From assembly GCA_963663165.1 (NCBI GenBank), contig OY760175.1, forward strand, positions 896,001 to 960,000: a stretch of 64,000 nt of DNA, written 5' to 3'. The notes under the pieces were generated by a model. It ran no database searches and was not told where the DNA came from. It saw only the letters and a list, made by a program, of their open reading frames with translations. Position 1 is the stretch's first letter. Each line of letters begins with the position of its first letter. Below are positions 5,732 to 31,008 of the stretch, piece by piece. A program made the position numbers and the translations under genes. This DNA is from an uncultured Desulfospira sp. (GTDB taxonomy: Bacteria > Desulfobacterota > Desulfobacteria > Desulfobacterales > Desulfobacteraceae).

Positions 5732-5799
5732 ACAGATACAACAGATAAGAACTTGCTTTTTGACTCAAGAAGTATAGAAAAATATTGGAAGCTTGAAAT

Positions 5800-5855
5800 A
5801 TGCCCCCGCCGGGCCACAGGCACAACATGTTGTGCCTGTGGCCCGGCGGGGGCAT
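5800..5855. repeat. Perfect 56 bp palindrome
   Basis: ATGCCCCCGCCGGGCCACAGGCACAACA followed directly by its exact reverse complement. Confidence 0.95.
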
Positions 5856-6633: not shown

Positions 6634-6652
6634 GTTTCTGCCCTTCAGGGTA
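6634..6652 (-). repeat. 19 bp micro-insertion (TACCCTGAAGGGCAGAAAC)
   Basis: Sits at a transposase frameshift; matches the other copies. Confidence 0.8.
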
Positions 6653-6992
6653 TGATGGCATCATTTATTTTCCCCTCTTTCTTGAGCATTTTCAGCACCT
6701 CATACTGAAATGCTTCTTCCAGGTCTTCAAGCATAAATATCGGAGCAGTCTGAAAGCTGCCGTCTTTTAAGAAACAACCGTCTGAAACTATGGCGTGAAG
6801 ATGCGGATTGAAATTTAGAAAGTCGCCATAGGTCTGCACTGCAATACTGGCACCGGGAACAGCTTCTCCACCCGGGACCGTAGATTTCAGGTAAGCTGTA
6901 ATAACACTCCATGCACATTTGGAAAGTTTTGCCAGTAAAGTGCGGTCATAAAGAAAATAAATTCGTAACCGTTTAGGGATGCTGAAAACCCA

Positions 6993-7011
6993 GTTTCTGA
7001 CCTTTAGGTTA
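6993..7011 (-). repeat. 19 bp micro-insertion (TAACCTAAAGGTCAGAAAC)
   Basis: Removal restores CGG CAA TGG GTT TTC (RQWVF). Confidence 0.85.
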
Positions 7012-7263
7012 TTGCCGGTATGGGACATCTTTTAAGACATTTGTCAGCAGCCATTCTCCATATTCGACAACCCTTTTCTGATGATAGGATGGGCAAAAAT
7101 GCCGGCGCTTGCAAGAAAATGCCAGAAGACACTCATGGCCACATTCTTCACAACGGACCCTGGCAAACCCCATATGAAGATCACCACAGTCGAGATATCT
7201 GTAAATTACAGTCATGACGTATGTTCGCCAATAGCCGTATCTGGATTTATACATATCATCCCA

Positions 7264-7281
7264 GTTTCTGCCCTCCGGGTA
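7264..7281 (-). repeat. 18 bp in-frame micro-insertion (TACCCGGAGGGCAGAAAC)
   Basis: Adds YPEGRN within ERV/WDD of the transposase. Confidence 0.8.
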
Positions 7282-7529: not shown

Positions 7530-7577
7530 CCCTAACAAAAAAATGCTGCGGATAAACCGCAGATTTTGACGTTCTGG
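7530..7577 (+). other. Integron attC-like recombination site (48 bp)
   Basis: CCCTAAC-N5-AATGCTGC...GCAGATT-N5-GTTCTGG. L''/L' pair with one extrahelical G. A TGA lies just upstream. Confidence 0.65.
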
Positions 7578-8577
7578 GTGCGACACGAGGTCGCACTATT
7601 GGCTGTTTGCGGGCCTGTCGGTCCTGACCAAACCCGGCATTCTCCTGCCGGTACCCTATGTGGCATGCGGTTTCCGGTGCATCCGGAAACGGTGTGAAGC
7701 CCAACCGAAAACGTACCGAATTCCGCAATTGCGGAAGGGGTGGAAGCCGTGAGGCGGATATCCTCCTGGAAGCCTCAATCCGGTTGAGGGCAAGGGTTTG
7801 GATGATATGGTCAAATTAATTGAATGTTCCGTAAGTACCGTCACGGAGAGCAAGCTAAAGAGGCTGGTAAGCTTGGACCTAAAGGTGAGCGGTCAGGTTG
7901 CAGATTTCCGAACTACCGCGTGAGATGTTGCGCCGCCGGTGCTTAAGGGCAGGCCTAAGTCATCCACTAATTGGCAATAGTGTGGAACGTGGAAACCCCG
8001 TATCTTCGCCGGGAACATTCGGCAGGTGAAACCGTAAGGCACACTGATGAAGGTGCGGGAGTAAGATGCAGGAAAAAGCGAATGCCATCTTGTAATGAGG
8101 TGGATACGGATTGAGATGGATCTATTCTTCAACATTACCCGGCCCGAAAGGGAGCTGACGTCCGGCGGGTGTGGCTACAGACACACCCGGACAGGTGTTT
8201 CTTTGCGAGAAAGTCTGGAGAATCTTTGAAAATGGGAAAGCAAATGACGGCAATAGCTGGTGCGCCCATCAGCAGTTTATACTGTTAAAAGACTGTAGAT
8301 GCGTATCGCAAAGGTTGTTAGAGAAGCACACGACATGCACATCCAGAGGCATTTTCAAAAGACGTATGTTTTTTGACCAGAAAAAAAAGAACTGTACTTC
8401 CCTGGCGGATCATCAAAGAAGCATGCTATGGAATAACTGTAAATTTCATTATTGCTTAAACAACCGGGTGGCCCCGCAAGGCTTAGCCTTAGAAATGCTT
8501 GAGCCGTATGACGGGAAACTGTCACGTACGGTTCTGAGGGGGCTTGGGGCAGTTAAAACTGCCCCCGGCTACCCGAT
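7578..8577 (+). ncRNA. Group II intron (IIB/CL-like) lacking an intact RT ORF
   Basis: 5' GTGCGAC; domain V GAGCCGTATGACGGGAAACTGTCACGTACGGTTC; domain VI hairpin ending ACCCGAT; no YADD-containing ORF. Confidence 0.9.
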
Positions 8578-10133: not shown

Positions 10134-10403
10134 ATGCTCCCCCTGATGTTGTGTTTTTTTGTATAATTGCACAACAGCACGAATTGTGCAATAAATCATT
10201 TGCGCACAACAACCTTGTAATTTAAAAAAAGAAGAAAGTCATACCGCGCATAGCCAGGTTAACGATGAAAAGAGAAGAAAGCATTTGGTGGTCGCCTTTT
10301 GATGTTAAAATGGAGCCTTTACAGGAATTTTTAACAGGCCTTTTGATTTATATTTTCGTCTGATATAATGCTGAAAAATATATCCGGGAGGTACAAAAAA
10401 ATC

Positions 10404-10628
10404 ATGAGAGTAACCAATACATCAATATTTGATTTAAGCCCACCAGAAAAATTGCAGTTGGTACAGGATTTATGGGATGATCTGGCTAACACTGCATCTG
10501 ATGTCCCCATTCATGAATGGCAAAAACAAGAATTGGCCAAGAGAAAGGCTAACTTAATGACCAATCCGGCTTCTGGGCTATCATGGAACGAGGTAAAGCA
10601 AAAAGTTCGAAGTCCATATGGACGCTGA
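10404..10628 (+). CDS. Addiction-module antitoxin (TIGR02574-like)
   Basis: LSPPEKLQLVQDLWDDL...WQKQEL.KR...SWNEVK; overlaps the toxin start. Confidence 0.85.
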   Translation: MRVTNTSIFDLSPPEKLQLVQDLWDDLANTASDVPIHEWQKQELAKRKANLMTNPASGLSWNEVKQKVRSPYGR

Positions 10629-10918
10629 ACTCGTCATAGCACCTGAGGCTCTTCAAGATGTTCATGAAGCCTATAACTGGTATGAAAACAGAAGGACTGG
10701 CCTGGGTGAAGATTTTTTGAGTTGTGTGGATGCCTGTATCCAAAAAAATATGCCGGGCACCTGAATTATATATGAAGGTTCATGAGAACTATCGACGGGC
10801 ACTGGTGAGGCGCTTCCCATATGCTGTATTCTTTGAATTTGCAAATAAAAAGGTGATTGTTTACAGTATATTCCATATTTCTCAAAATCCAGGAAAATGG
10901 AAATTCCGCTTAACTTGA
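10618..10918 (+). pseudogene. RelE/ParE toxin, frameshifted
   Basis: MDAELVIAPEALQDVHEAYNWYE..GLGEDF continues as YRRALVRRFPYAVF only after a shift in the A7 run at 10742-10748. Confidence 0.85.
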
Positions 10919-15079: not shown

Positions 15080-15434
15080 ATGGGAGCAACCGCCTATCTG
15101 CTCAAAAATGCCGCGATGAAAAAACGGCTGCTTGATGCTAAAAACCGCACGGAAGGAATACCTTTTGATAAAGCCTGCCAGGATCTTGGAGTTTGATGCC
15201 AACGGATTTGAGGACCTTGCCTGGTGGATCGAAAAGGACAGAAAAAAGGCCCAAAAAATCGTTAAACTCATCAAGGAAGTCCAACGCCAACCGTTTGAGG
15301 GGACGGGCAAGCCCGAACCCCTCAAACACGAACTGTCTGGATGCTGGTCACGACGGATTGGCCGGGAACACCGGCTGGTCTAACTGGTCTTTGATGAAAA
15401 AATCAGGATATTGGCTTGTAGATATCATTATTAG
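15080..15434 (+). pseudogene. Antitoxin remnant plus Txe/YoeB toxin with a nonsense codon
   Basis: ATAYLL...KRLLDA..EGIPF remnant overlaps LEFD..FEDL.WW...GKPEPLKH.LSGCWSRRI..EHRLV*, which continues in frame to ACRYHY*. Confidence 0.85.
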
Positions 15435-15452
15435 CTGAACTCTTGTTTAGCT

Positions 15453-21120: not shown

Positions 21121-21201
21121 TATAAACGGTCACGGACCGTCCCGGGTTATCCAACCAAGAACCGTCCTAAACGAATAATGAAAGTTTTTATAAGTAGTTA
21201 A
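21121..21201 (+). repeat. ~91 bp triple-hairpin repeat, degenerate copy
   Basis: AACGGTCACGGACCGT..GGTTATCCAACCAAG..ATGAAAG. Confidence 0.8.
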
Positions 21202-23448: not shown

Positions 23449-24891
23449 ATGAAAAAACATACCCATTGTGCCGCAGCTTTAATCGTTATGGTGCCCATGA
23501 TCATGGCGTTTTGCATGATGATACCGGGAACAGCCTTATCCGGAACCGGCCCGGTTGAGTTTTCCGGTTATATTGAACAGGGGGCCAATTTTGGTATTGC
23601 CGGTGACAAACAGGACAACAAAGAGGGATTCCAGCAGGCCGTCACAAAGGTCCTTCTTGAAGCACGCCATGATTTTTCAGACACCCTGTTTTTCTATGGA
23701 TCAGGCCGGCTGGATGTGGACCTGGCCTATGATCTGTTACATGACAACCATGAATGGGAAAGCAAGGGGTTCAATAAATCCAGGGACGAGCGCCAGATGC
23801 TGGATGAATGGAATGACCTCCTTTTTGAGGCCCATCTGACCTGGACCCCGGGGGATTTCAGGATCCGGGTGGGCAAGCAGATCATTCAATGGGGGGAGAT
23901 GGACATTGTGCCGGTGACCAGCCAGGTGTCGCCCCAGGACTACCGCAGGGGGTATACGGAAAACGATTTTGAATTGCTGTTTTTACCGGTTACCATGGCC
24001 AAGATAGAGTATTATCCCCCTATCTTTACCGAGTCTGTCTCCCATGTGGCCATTGAACTGGTCATCAACCCGGGCATCGAATTTCGGGGAACGGAAGGCT
24101 GGGTCGAGGCCTCAAGCCAGGATGCCGGGATCTGGACCCCGGACATGATGGACTTATGGATTCCGGCCAACTATGCTGAAGATATAGACTTCAAAGAGCC
24201 GGACCATTACGAGGAGTTCGGACTGCGTGTCTCTGCGGATATTTTTGAGACCTATATCCAGGTCATGTACTTCAACGGGATCCAGAACAACCCGGTGGTG
24301 ACCGAAGTGGATGCCTGGTTTACCTCCACCAAAGCCGGATACAGGGATGAAGAGTTTATCGGCATGTCCCTTTCCCGGGAACTGCCCTTTTCCCTTTCCG
24401 CCCTTGGCGGGGTTAAACCGGTGCTGCGCCTTGAAACCGCCTATTTCTTTGACTCCACCATCGGGTTCTACTATATCCCGGATTATTTTATGAGCCTTAT
24501 CAAAGACAAGTGGCTGTGGGGCGTCGGCCTGGACTGGAAAATCGATATCCCCCTTTTAAACCCCAGGGCCGACATTACCGTTTATCCGGAAGTGGTTCAG
24601 GAACTGGTCCTTGACACCAACACCGCTGAAGTGGATGCCGTCAGCGGTGCCCAAAAAACAACCTCCTGGAACCTGACCCTGGAAACCCTCTATCTGCACG
24701 ACAAGCTCAAGGCCTCTTTGTTTATTCAGTATGAATCCGAGTACAATACCCGGCAGATCAACCCGGCCATTGAGTACAGCCCGGATGAAAACTGGACCTA
24801 CCGGCTCGGCGTCCGGTGGTTTGACGGAACCAAAGATATCACGTGGAACCACAAAGACCACATCTATGCATCGGTATCCTACCAGTTTTAA
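23449..24891 (+). CDS. DUF1302-like outer-membrane beta-barrel protein
   Basis: Signal peptide; RVGKQIIQWGE.D; C-terminal SVSYQF; gene context. Confidence 0.75.
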   Translation: MKKHTHCAAALIVMVPMIMAFCMMIPGTALSGTGPVEFSGYIEQGANFGIAGDKQDNKEGFQQAVTKVLLEARHDFSDTLFFYGSGRLDVDLAYDLLHDNHEWESKGFNKSRDERQMLDEWNDLLFEAHLTWTPGDFRIRVGKQIIQWGEMDIVPVTSQVSPQDYRRGYTENDFELLFLPVTMAKIEYYPPIFTESVSHVAIELVINPGIEFRGTEGWVEASSQDAGIWTPDMMDLWIPANYAEDIDFKEPDHYEEFGLRVSADIFETYIQVMYFNGIQNNPVVTEVDAWFTSTKAGYRDEEFIGMSLSRELPFSLSALGGVKPVLRLETAYFFDSTIGFYYIPDYFMSLIKDKWLWGVGLDWKIDIPLLNPRADITVYPEVVQELVLDTNTAEVDAVSGAQKTTSWNLTLETLYLHDKLKASLFIQYESEYNTRQINPAIEYSPDENWTYRLGVRWFDGTKDITWNHKDHIYASVSYQF

Positions 24892-25168
24892 ATAACGGTC
24901 ACGGACCGTCTTTGGTTATCCAACCAAGAACCGGTCCACAACAAAAGATGGAAGTCTTTACGGGTAGTTAGTCAGACTTTCATATAACGGCCACGGGCCG
25001 TCTTGGTTATCCAACCAAGAACCGCCCACAACAAATAATGAAAGTCTTCTCAGGAGGTTAGTGAGACTTTCATATAAACAGCCACGGGCTGATTTGGTTA
25101 TCCAACCAAGATCCGCCCACAACAAATAATGAAAGTCCTCTCAAGATGTTAGTGAGACTTTCATATAA
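24892..25168 (+). repeat. Three tandem copies of the ~91 bp triple-hairpin repeat
   Basis: Unit AACGGCCACGGGCCGT-CTTGGTTATCCAACCAAG-...-ATGAAAGTC..GACTTTCAT repeated head to tail. Confidence 0.95.
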
Positions 25169-25245
25169 AACCCGACAGACCCGGGGGCCAGTTTTCCTTA
25201 ACGGGCCGGCCCCTTTGGATAAGACCCGAACATAAGCAGATCCAT

Positions 25246-30887: not shown

Positions 30888-30993
30888 TATAACGGCCATA
30901 CCCTAAAGGGCAGAAACCGGGCCGCCTTGGTTATCCAAGCGAGGCAGCCGGCAACAAAGATTAAAAGTCACCTTTGTTAAGGGACTTTCTCAT
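30888..30993 (+). repeat. ~91 bp repeat copy carrying the 19 bp micro-insertion (30899-30917)
   Basis: AACGGCCA[TACCCTAAAGGGCAGAAAC]CGGGCCG..TTGGTTATCCAA. Confidence 0.85.
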
Positions 30994-31008
30994 AAAACTC
31001 AATACACT

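What the first reader, a model, noticed from the sequence alone, without database searches (positions are those of the whole stretch)
6634..7281. An 18-19 bp hairpin micro-element inserted three times into one transposase gene
Seen: TACCCTRAAGGGCAGAAAC-like units at 6634-6652, 6993-7011 and 7264-7281, all on the minus strand. Removing the 6993 copy restores RQWVFSIPK, and removing the 7264 copy gives ERVWDDMY. The 6634 site keeps one extra base after removal. No target duplication longer than 1 nt is visible. The unit forms a CCCT-NN-AGGG hairpin plus a GAAAC tail. The bases 3' of the four clear copies are TGGG, TGGG, TTGA and CGGG, loosely complementary to the unit's own ACCC start. Inference: a very small mobile sequence, analogous to cyanobacterial small dispersed repeats, perhaps moved by a HUH/ssDNA or RNA-templated mechanism. 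It could also be the excision footprint of a larger element.
Basis: partly seen in the sequence, partly recalled or inferred. Interest (0 to 1): 0.85.

Follow-up and report, generated by a model that had tools for sequence, protein, structure and literature searches.

The report
Tiny 18-19-base mobile hairpin family
An 18-19-letter DNA hairpin has pasted itself, with clean edges, into many unrelated sites in sulfate-reducing bacteria, even hitting the same spot in distantly related copies of one gene, so it is among the smallest mobile DNA units seen, and the enzyme that moves it is still unidentified.

Summary
The three insertions are real. An intact allele of the same IS91-like Y2 transposase in this genome lacks all three. 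The unit TAMCC-YRAA-GGKCA-GAAAC has 37 copies here: 17 in one dispersed repeat, 16 in another, 4 in IS91-like DNA, each host with empty twins. It occurs in 26 of 84 family genomes (0-159 copies). It inserts at R|YNR without target duplication. Filled transposase alleles are polyphyletic and diverged mostly at third codon positions, so two of the window's sites were hit independently in other genera. An 18-nt sister subfamily (tail CRCR) is more widespread, forms tandem arrays and nests in hairpin loops. No larger parent element and no enzyme gene flanked by units was found; REP, IS200 and IS91 target rules are not met. Best reading: an SDR-like micro-element cut and rejoined as single-stranded DNA by an HUH-type enzyme in trans (about 45%); RNA-templated insertion is the main rival. 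A 15-16 of 16 match to tRNA-fMet is an untested lead. This scan noted similar 22-24-nt units in other genomes; I found this sequence in no paper searched.

The parts
6634..6652 (-). 19-nt unit, TACCC/GGGC subtype, in the Y2 domain at A|TTG; the same site is filled in diverged alleles L204 and L238
6993..7011 (-). 19-nt unit, TAACC/GGTC subtype, at A|TGG; starts with a stop codon; the same site is filled in G444, G006, G007
7264..7281 (-). 18-nt decayed unit, in frame (YPEGRN), at R|TGG; a 19-nt copy sits at this site in L029/L228 and a diverged filled allele is in L086
6628..6628 (-). separate one-base insertion (C) next to the 6634 unit, shared with L029/L228 but not with the independently filled L204 and L238
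5992..7389 (-). host gene: IS91-like Y2 HUH transposase (PF14319 + PF04986), broken into three frames by the insertions
5743..5810 (-). 3' end of the IS91-like element (oriIS-like; copies stop sharing sequence after ...AAGTTCTTATCT and are followed by GTAA, GTTG or GTTT)
   Evidence: the oriIS label is recalled, not tested
7530..7577 (+). attC-like site upstream of the transposase (read by eye; a solitary copy lies at C1:4923731)
   Evidence: no attC model was run
7578..8577 (+). group II intron remnant (GTGCG...AT, about 1 kb, no RT domain found) that follows the attC-like site; not shown to be linked to the unit
30899..30917 (+). fourth 19-nt unit, in the 3-nt loop (A|CG) of the small first hairpin of dispersed repeat A
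30890..30996 (+). filled copy of repeat A (about 90-bp two-hairpin repeat, 226 cores in the genome); right boundary approximate
24890..25170 (+). tandem empty copies of repeat A (cores at 24914, 25005, 25096); more empty copies at 21145 (+) and 58703, 58794, 58941 (-); boundaries approximate

Best explanation
SHOWN: the unit is a gene-less 18-19-nt insertion element with fixed ends. It enters between a purine and a pyrimidine (R|YNR) without duplicating or deleting target bases. It has done so many times independently, on either strand of its hosts, mostly in mobile DNA, dispersed repeats, hairpin loops and intergenic DNA. INFERRED: it moves as single-stranded DNA. An HUH-type (tyrosine) nuclease-ligase encoded elsewhere binds the short hairpin (TTYA loop and G.T pair on the bottom strand, like the tips of REP and IS200 hairpins), cuts at both ends of the unit, cuts an exposed R|Y step in another single-stranded region and rejoins, so no duplication arises. 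Copies in repeats A and B then multiply further with their hosts and by gene conversion. Which enzyme does it is not shown; the IS91-like Y2 transposase (its own DNA is the most often hit gene) and RAYT-like Y1 proteins are the candidates.
For: Empty twins for every host class. No duplication at sites where the parse is unambiguous (A|C, G|C). Logo over 53 flank clusters: -1 purine 49, +1 pyrimidine 49, +3 purine 51. Filled transposase alleles are not one clade (26 rows; AU p 7e-99 for the 6993 site, 4e-52 for the 6634 site), and filled pairs differ mainly at third codon positions, e.g. 69/41/194; their flanks match local empty sisters. Stem letters 3 and 12 pair in 373 of 378 distinct-flank copies and the A.C (G.T on the other strand) is kept in 370 of 378. 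Group 3 REP-Mb has a 5-bp stem with a TTTA loop and is cut 5' and 3' of the hairpin by a Y1 enzyme (PMC8266576, passages); REPs insert into their own tnpA genes in subclass 2.4 (PMC6006769, passages). IS91-like DNA hosts the first-listed copy in 8 of 29 genomes and was the only transposase-type cluster seen among ORFs near units (13 loci; judged from the printed sequences). In G000, 508,845 bases of multicopy DNA hold units only in the window's element. Units enter the loops of other units and of REP-like hairpins.
Against: No Y1 or GIY-YIG gene is flanked by units in 345 loci (one Y1 gene lies 180 bp away). G154, a one-contig genome with 20 units, has no PF01797 match. The tag-guided target rules of RAYT and IS200 and the tetranucleotide rule of the IS91-like element are not obeyed. 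Targets are only weakly more unpaired than matched controls (48 vs 626 sites: p 0.02 at -1, p 0.29 at +1, MFE p 0.40). IS91-like DNA is in 54 of 121 family genomes, many without units. The sister subfamily also sits in what look like IS110, DDE and IstB genes, so the enrichment may reflect tolerance of neutral DNA. Young identical IS copies inflate the 508-kb comparison. The covariation count is biased, since searched paired variants only; in the unbiased, 2 of 31 listed copies are unpaired.
Confidence: 0.45

Rival explanations
1. RNA-templated insertion: a short hairpin RNA (bottom strand GUUUC-UGCCC-UUYA-GGGUA, or a fragment of tRNA-fMet on the top strand) is copied by one of the group II-type reverse transcriptases, or recombines into RNA, and is fixed at nicks or hairpin tips.
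For: The bottom strand gives a full 5-bp stem with a G.U pair only under RNA parameters. The top strand matches tRNA-fMet nt 36-51 at 15 of 16 positions in several genera and 16 of 16 in G077, with the same YRAA variation. RT genes were found in 5 of 5 genomes tested. Tandem arrays of 2-3 units occur.
Against: No poly-A tail, truncation series or target duplication was seen. The commonest variant (CCC/GGG) departs from the tRNA by a compensatory pair that the cloverleaf does not need. The CRCR tail does not match tRNA-fMet in the 5 of 5 f127 genomes checked. The tRNA match was noticed after the fact. RTs are also present in G002, which has no units.
Confidence: 0.25
2. Excision footprint: a larger element inserts at R|YNR and leaves 18-19 nt made of its two ends when it is lost.
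For: The three IS200 copies in G000 begin TGTTTCTG and carry a CC-TTTA-GG hairpin followed by GGGTA, so the unit's bottom strand reads like a collapsed left end.
Against: No parent was found: 118 GG[GT]CAGAAAC sites in G000 show no other recurrent upstream end apart from CRISPR repeats; no B site holds a larger insert; none of the roughly 380 copies collected is split by anything but another unit. The IS200 copies follow TTTAT, which the unit's targets lack. Nesting and tandem arrays imply that the unit itself moves.
Confidence: 0.1
3. A few ancient insertions spread only passively, by host-repeat transposition, gene conversion and replication template switching, with no dedicated enzyme.
For: 33 of 37 copies in G000 lie at two repeat sites; subtype and site are tightly coupled (A with TACCC, B with TAACC); filled A and B copies are not one clade (12 of 203 parsed, AU p 3e-5; 18 of 78, p 0.007), which conversion would explain.
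Against: Conversion needs flanking homology, yet transposase alleles 73-77% identical carry the unit at the same nucleotide with their own local flanks, and dozens of unrelated single sites exist.
Confidence: 0.12
4. A single-strand nuclease of the Ssn (GIY-YIG) type, an integron integrase or an IS110 recombinase makes the nick and host repair joins the unit in.
For: The sister subfamily starts CGTG/CGCG on the bottom strand, close to the CGTC tag of Ssn-linked repeats (PMC3733652, PMC11893778, passages); small GIY-YIG genes occur in 5 of 5 unit-rich genomes and integron integrases in 4 of 5 genomes tested.
Against: None of 6 small GIY-YIG loci has a unit-like sequence nearby; empty sites have no GTT core or shared core dinucleotide.
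Confidence: 0.08

Closest known systems
Small dispersed repeats SDR1-8 of Nostocaceae (Elhai et al. 2008, Genome Res 18:1484; paper not held; seen only through passages of PMC4390886, PMC5861425, PMC3116915)
   Same: Tiny gene-less unit, precise insertion into a few recurring contexts with empty twins, unknown driver (compensatory hairpin and 21-27 nt size are recalled).
   Different: 18-19 nt; Desulfobacterota, not cyanobacteria; loose R|YNR rule, not HIP1; repeated hits at identical nucleotides of a transposase gene; self-nesting and tandem arrays. Sequence kinship could not be tested.
REP / RAYT (TnpAREP), especially group 3 REP-Mb of Marinomonas and subclass 2.4 (PMC8266576, PMC6006769, PMC3116915; passages)
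   Same: About 20 nt: short 5' tag + 5-bp stem + TTTA-type loop; no target duplication; insertion into a HUH transposase gene.
   Different: Tag is GTTTC, CGTG or CGCG, not GTAG; no flanked tnpAREP gene; cuts at R|Y, not tag-guided C|T or C|A; moves as a single unit, often into REP-like loops.
IS200/IS605 ends and their non-autonomous derivatives
   Same: TTTA-loop hairpin; the IS200 left end in G000 starts with the same GTTTCTG; no duplication.
   Different: One hairpin instead of two ends; no fixed 4-5-nt target 5' of the element (TTTAT for that IS200).
IS91 family / Helitron-type rolling-circle elements (features recalled)
   Same: No duplication; T at the 5' end, A|T preference and a subterminal hairpin recall Helitrons; IS91-like DNA is the most frequent coding host.
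   Different: No oriIS likeness; target is not the xxAC/GTxx tetranucleotide of the local IS91-like element; present on both strands of that element.
CGTC-tagged repeats / NTS with Ssn nucleases (PMC3733652, PMC11893778; passages)
   Same: Tagged, oriented hairpin; the sister subfamily begins CGTG or CGCG.
   Different: Stem 5 bp, not 8-9; no neighbouring ssn gene; found inserted into CGTC-type repeats instead.

Membership tests
SDR (Nostocaceae) | Empty and filled versions of the same context | tested here: met
SDR (Nostocaceae) | Hairpin kept by compensatory change (recalled) | tested here: met
   A-T / C-G swap at positions 3 and 12; 373 of 378 paired, biased sample; unbiased listings
SDR (Nostocaceae) | Length 21-27 nt (recalled) and Nostocaceae host (PMC5861425) | tested here: not met
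   18-19 nt; Desulfobacterota
SDR (Nostocaceae) | Sequence kinship with SDR1-8 | not testable with these tools
   paper not held
REP / RAYT | 5' GTAG (GTRG) tag | tested here: not met
   bottom strand starts GTTTC, CGTG or CGCG
REP / RAYT | Short stem-loop behind the tag | tested here: met
   5-bp stem with G.U/G.T and TTYA loop; compare REP-Mb
REP / RAYT | tnpAREP gene flanked by the repeats | tested here: not met
   0 of 345 loci flanked, 1 Y1 gene 180 bp away; none at G000 Y1 genes; loci are 0.6-20 kb samples, not whole genomes
REP / RAYT | Cleavage dinucleotide complementary to the tag | tested here: not met
   R|Y target for both GTTT and CGTG tags against the rule in PMC8266576; compared by hand
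REP / RAYT | Inverted doublets (REPIN) as the moving unit | not tested
   single, tandem and nested copies seen; no spacing analysis was run
IS200/IS605 non-autonomous element | Fixed tetra- or pentanucleotide target 5' of the left end | tested here: not met
   3 of 3 IS200 copies follow TTTAT; unit targets do not
IS200/IS605 non-autonomous element | Left and right ends, each with a hairpin | tested here: not met
   one hairpin in 18-19 nt
IS91 non-autonomous element | oriIS end and tetranucleotide target | tested here: not met
   local element ends ...TTCTTATCT followed by GTAA, GTTG, GTTT; the unit shares neither
IS91 non-autonomous element | No target duplication | tested here: met
MITE (DDE type) | Terminal inverted repeats and target duplication | tested here: not met
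   asymmetric ends, no duplication
CGTC/NTS repeat with Ssn | ssn gene flanked by the repeat | tested here: not met
   0 of 6 small GIY-YIG loci; no GIY-YIG in 345 unit loci
HUH-mobilised element (any) | Cleavage and strand transfer on ssDNA by a cognate enzyme | not testable with these tools
   needs a bench assay

The most novel reading that the evidence does not exclude
A single 18-19-nt hairpin, possibly born from the anticodon-to-T-arm stretch of tRNA-fMet, is a complete transposable unit: an enzyme in trans excises and re-inserts it as single-stranded DNA with no second end, no guide tag and no duplication, preferentially parasitising other mobile elements (above all IS91-like rolling-circle elements) and inactivating them. 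This would set the lower size limit for a transposon and supply the missing mechanism for SDR-type elements.
Probability: 0.25. Interest if true: 0.88.

Novelty: new variant of a known kind. Interest (0 to 1): 0.66.

Why it matters
How sub-30-nt repeats move has been open since the SDR paper of 2008. This family is shorter than those, has a simple target rule, exact and independently re-hit hot spots in a known gene, two subfamilies with swapped tails, and genomes with 0 to 159 copies inside one family, so the question can be put to a short list of enzymes with defined oligonucleotide substrates. It also shows a micro-parasite that inactivates larger mobile elements: up to three hits in one transposase allele in two different genera.

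Tried and rejected
Parent element with the same ends: none in G000 or among collected loci. Enzyme presence as a discriminator: Y1, RT and Y2 matched in 5 of 5 and integron integrase in 4 of 5 genomes, including unit-free G002, so no discrimination. Ssn-like GIY-YIG: not flanked. Subtype-specific target pairing: no offset from -20 to +20 associated with subtype in 35 single-subtype clusters (best p 0.09; that call kept only sites with +3 purine, so its logo is not used). Hairpin-tip rule for all sites: stem of 5 or more in 5 of 48 targets vs 24 of 626 controls; true for repeat A and nested copies only. Integrase G|TT or IS110 core dinucleotide: absent from empty sites. tRNA tail covariation: failed in f127. 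Earlier claim that repeat A is an IS110 miniature: no A ends found around the 4 PF02371 hits, a limited check, so left open; repeat B lies within 2.5 kb of none of 13 Y1 genes. Viral contigs: 1 stretch. Sequencing runs: no RNA holder listed. Print: none of five unit strings occurs in the library; searches gave no description of this family; no supplements were read, and the SDR paper and its supplements could bear on kinship. The host classifier put two transposase copies under repeat A; counts were corrected from the listing.

Full report
Observation. The three blocks lie at 6634-6652, 6993-7011 and 7264-7281 on the minus strand inside a transposase gene with Zn_Tnp_IS91 and Y2_Tnp domains. 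An intact 446-aa allele elsewhere in the genome (C1:4957953) aligns at 91% with gaps of exactly 18, 19 and 19 nt at these places plus one extra C. Three matches in the window stand against 0.02 expected. Contigs without the inserts occur in independent public runs (6634 site 4 of 4 runs, 7264 site 2, 6993 site 1), and one contig covers the 6634 unit without a gap at about 86% identity. The feature is neither chance nor an assembly artefact.

Family in this genome. There are 37 exact-pattern copies (listing): 17 in an approximately 90-bp two-hairpin repeat (A; 226 cores), 16 in an approximately 125-bp palindromic repeat (B), and 4 in IS91-like DNA (three here, one 18-nt variant at C1:1731658). 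Both repeats have many empty copies: 191 empty, 12 filled and 23 unparsed for A; 60 empty and 18 filled (looser pattern) for B. At these sites (CA|CGG, GCG|CAG) the parse is unambiguous: the insert runs from T to C and nothing is duplicated. Filled copies are not one clade in either repeat (AU p 3e-5 and 0.007), and orthologous A copies are filled in a relative but empty here (L134 at 94.6%, L015 at 93.7%) or filled in both (L015, L133; 24 of 178 flanks gave a usable long alignment, many of them not orthologous). Gain in place or gene conversion explains this.

Distribution. TAMCCYRAAGGKCAGAAAC matched 26 of 84 other genomes of family f1 and 3 of 316 outside it, with 0 to 159 copies and no match of the reversed control. 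The scan of named genomes stopped at 123 stretches, nearly all of the 80 listed being Desulfospira, Desulfobacula, Desulfobacter, Desulfocicer and unnamed Thermodesulfobacteriota or Deltaproteobacteria (about 9 chance matches expected by my arithmetic, and L093 is probably one). A sister subfamily with an 18-nt form and tail CACG, CGCG or CACA is confirmed by an empty twin, matched 11 of 401 phylum genomes with up to 33 copies in family f127 and at least 122 metagenome stretches.

Target rule. In 53 flank clusters from 226 sites, position -1 is A 41, G 8, T 3, C 1; +1 is T 31, C 18, other 4; +3 is a purine in 51 (some clusters belong to one repeat family). The sister subfamily prefers A|TAA and also enters loops at CTRA|AG, including its own loop and loops of hairpins that read like GTAG-tagged REPs and CGTC-tagged repeats (tags read by eye). 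GAAAC-type units enter the complementary-strand loop of other units at TT|CA, up to three deep (L216). Tandem pairs and triples occur. Units lie on both strands of IS91-like elements. Against matched control sites targets are only slightly more unpaired.

Independent hits at one nucleotide. Among IS91-like alleles, the 6634 site is filled in the window, L029/L228, L204 and L238; the 6993 site in the window, L229 and L011 (and L012); the 7264 site in the window and L029/L228. In a tree of 26 coding sequences (37 aligned, 11 under 750 bases left out, five duplicates removed) filled alleles sit among empty sisters, and holding them together is rejected (AU 7e-99, 4e-52). Differences between filled alleles fall mostly on third codon positions (window vs L011 69/41/194; window vs L238 56/50/182), so the genes diverged while functional and were hit afterwards. 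The bases next to the unit match each allele's own empty sister, which argues against conversion across lineages. L238 carries three units and a further 15-nt insert, a second multiply hit allele. This is the strongest evidence that the unit itself moves.

Structure. The top strand has a 3-bp stem with a YRAA loop and an A.C mismatch below it; the bottom strand forms a 5-bp stem with a G.U pair under RNA parameters and 3-4 bp under DNA parameters. Positions 3 and 12 swap between A-T and C-G (198 and 175 of 378 distinct-flank copies, biased by paired search strings; in the free-letter searches all listed copies and 29 of 31 are paired). The constant part is 14 nt; the 4-5-nt tail varies.

Driver. 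Y1, Y2, RT and integrase genes occur in unit-rich and unit-free genomes alike. G154 has 20 units and no Y1 match, though the nine copies examined sit in one repeat family that could have carried them. No Y1 or GIY-YIG gene is flanked by units in 345 loci. The IS91-like element is the most frequent coding host (8 of 29 first-listed loci; 13 loci), but its own target rule differs and it is common without units. The IS200 left end of this genome starts with the same GTTTCTG and has a TTTA-loop hairpin followed by GGGTA, but follows TTTAT in 3 of 3 copies. REP-Mb is of the same size and loop and is cut on both sides of its hairpin (PMC8266576, passages), and subclass 2.4 REPs insert into their own transposase genes (PMC6006769, passages); these show that the chemistry is possible, not that it is used here. 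I therefore put single-strand cut-and-join by an HUH-type enzyme at about 0.45, an RNA route at 0.25, passive spread at 0.12, a footprint at 0.10 and other nucleases at 0.08. That the unit is a mobile insertion element I put at about 0.9.

tRNA lead. The unit core equals tRNA-fMet from the last anticodon base on: 14 nt in this genome, 15 of 16 in several genera and 16 of 16 in G077. The CRCR tail is not matched in f127. The match was noticed after the fact; my rough chance estimate is 1e-3 to 1e-4. It is a lead only.

Comparison and novelty. It works like the Nostoc SDRs (precise insertion of SDR5 into HIP1 and restriction to Nostocaceae per passages of PMC4390886 and PMC5861425; the original was not held, and its 21-27-nt range is recalled) but fails membership on size and host, and fails the defining tests for REP/RAYT, IS200/IS605, IS91 and MITE derivatives. 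I also read passages of PMC3116915, PMC11893778, PMC3733652, PMC3184786 and PMC2884548; the last two added nothing. Five unit strings occur in no paper of the library. Earlier notes of this scan describe 22-24-nt units of like behaviour in other genomes; they are unchecked and not counted as support, but they show that the kind is recurrent. Verdict: a real, previously undescribed and unusually small variant of a known but unexplained kind, with unusually good handles for a test; interest 0.66.

Noticed in passing
L229, L236, L245 (IS91-like genes in G444, G251, G417): A second micro-element, about 24 nt, GAGSGCTRAAGCTTCACTKCGTGC, inserted at T-runs at two sites, each time with one target T lost or changed.
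   Followed up: partly
L024, L063, L128, L131 (repeat A of a named Thermodesulfobacteriota record): A third short insert containing GGGTCGAAGACGCGAAGCC in some copies of repeat A and absent from others.
   Followed up: no
L232 and L238, transposase CDS position about 369: A shared 15-nt insertion next to the 6993 hot spot.
   Followed up: no
window 7578-8577 (+): 1-kb group II intron remnant (RF02012, RF00029) without an RT domain, placed 7 nt after the GTT of an attC-like site, i.e. not at the classical IIC-attC position (classical position recalled).
   Followed up: partly
window 7530-7577; C1:4923731; L029; L172: The IS91-like element begins at an attC-like site in several copies, with the gene in reverse orientation to it.
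   Followed up: partly
G000 C1:4619777-4620415: A whole 92-bp repeat A inserted at G|TT inside an IS91-like remnant.
   Followed up: no
G000 C1:804859, 2722279, 6219601: Three near-identical short IS200 elements after TTTAT, ending TTAG; one interrupts a RAYT-like Y1 gene.
   Followed up: partly
L280 (G393:C67): Tandem pairs of units on both sides of a short stretch next to an rnpA-like gene: units also reach housekeeping regions.
   Followed up: no
L191, L202, L257-L264 (G154, G204): A further dispersed repeat (CCCGAAYATTTCA|TGACAATTTGAG) hosts the TAACC subtype; one related site lies 180 bp upstream of a RAYT-like Y1 gene.
   Followed up: partly
G000 C1 near 3023645, 4834496, 4888309, 4421637: RAYT-like Y1 genes preceded by GGGGTCA/GGGGACA repeats (TIRYT-type motif per PMC6006769), which share GGTCA(GA) with the unit core.
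   Followed up: no
window 10368-10918 and 15132-15438: Small gene pairs that look like toxin-antitoxin modules (addiction-module antitoxin with a RelE/ParE-like partner; YoeB-like gene), judged from ORF text only.
   Followed up: no
L462 (viral contig): Two head-to-tail TAACC-type units in a viral contig, the only hit in that collection.
   Followed up: no
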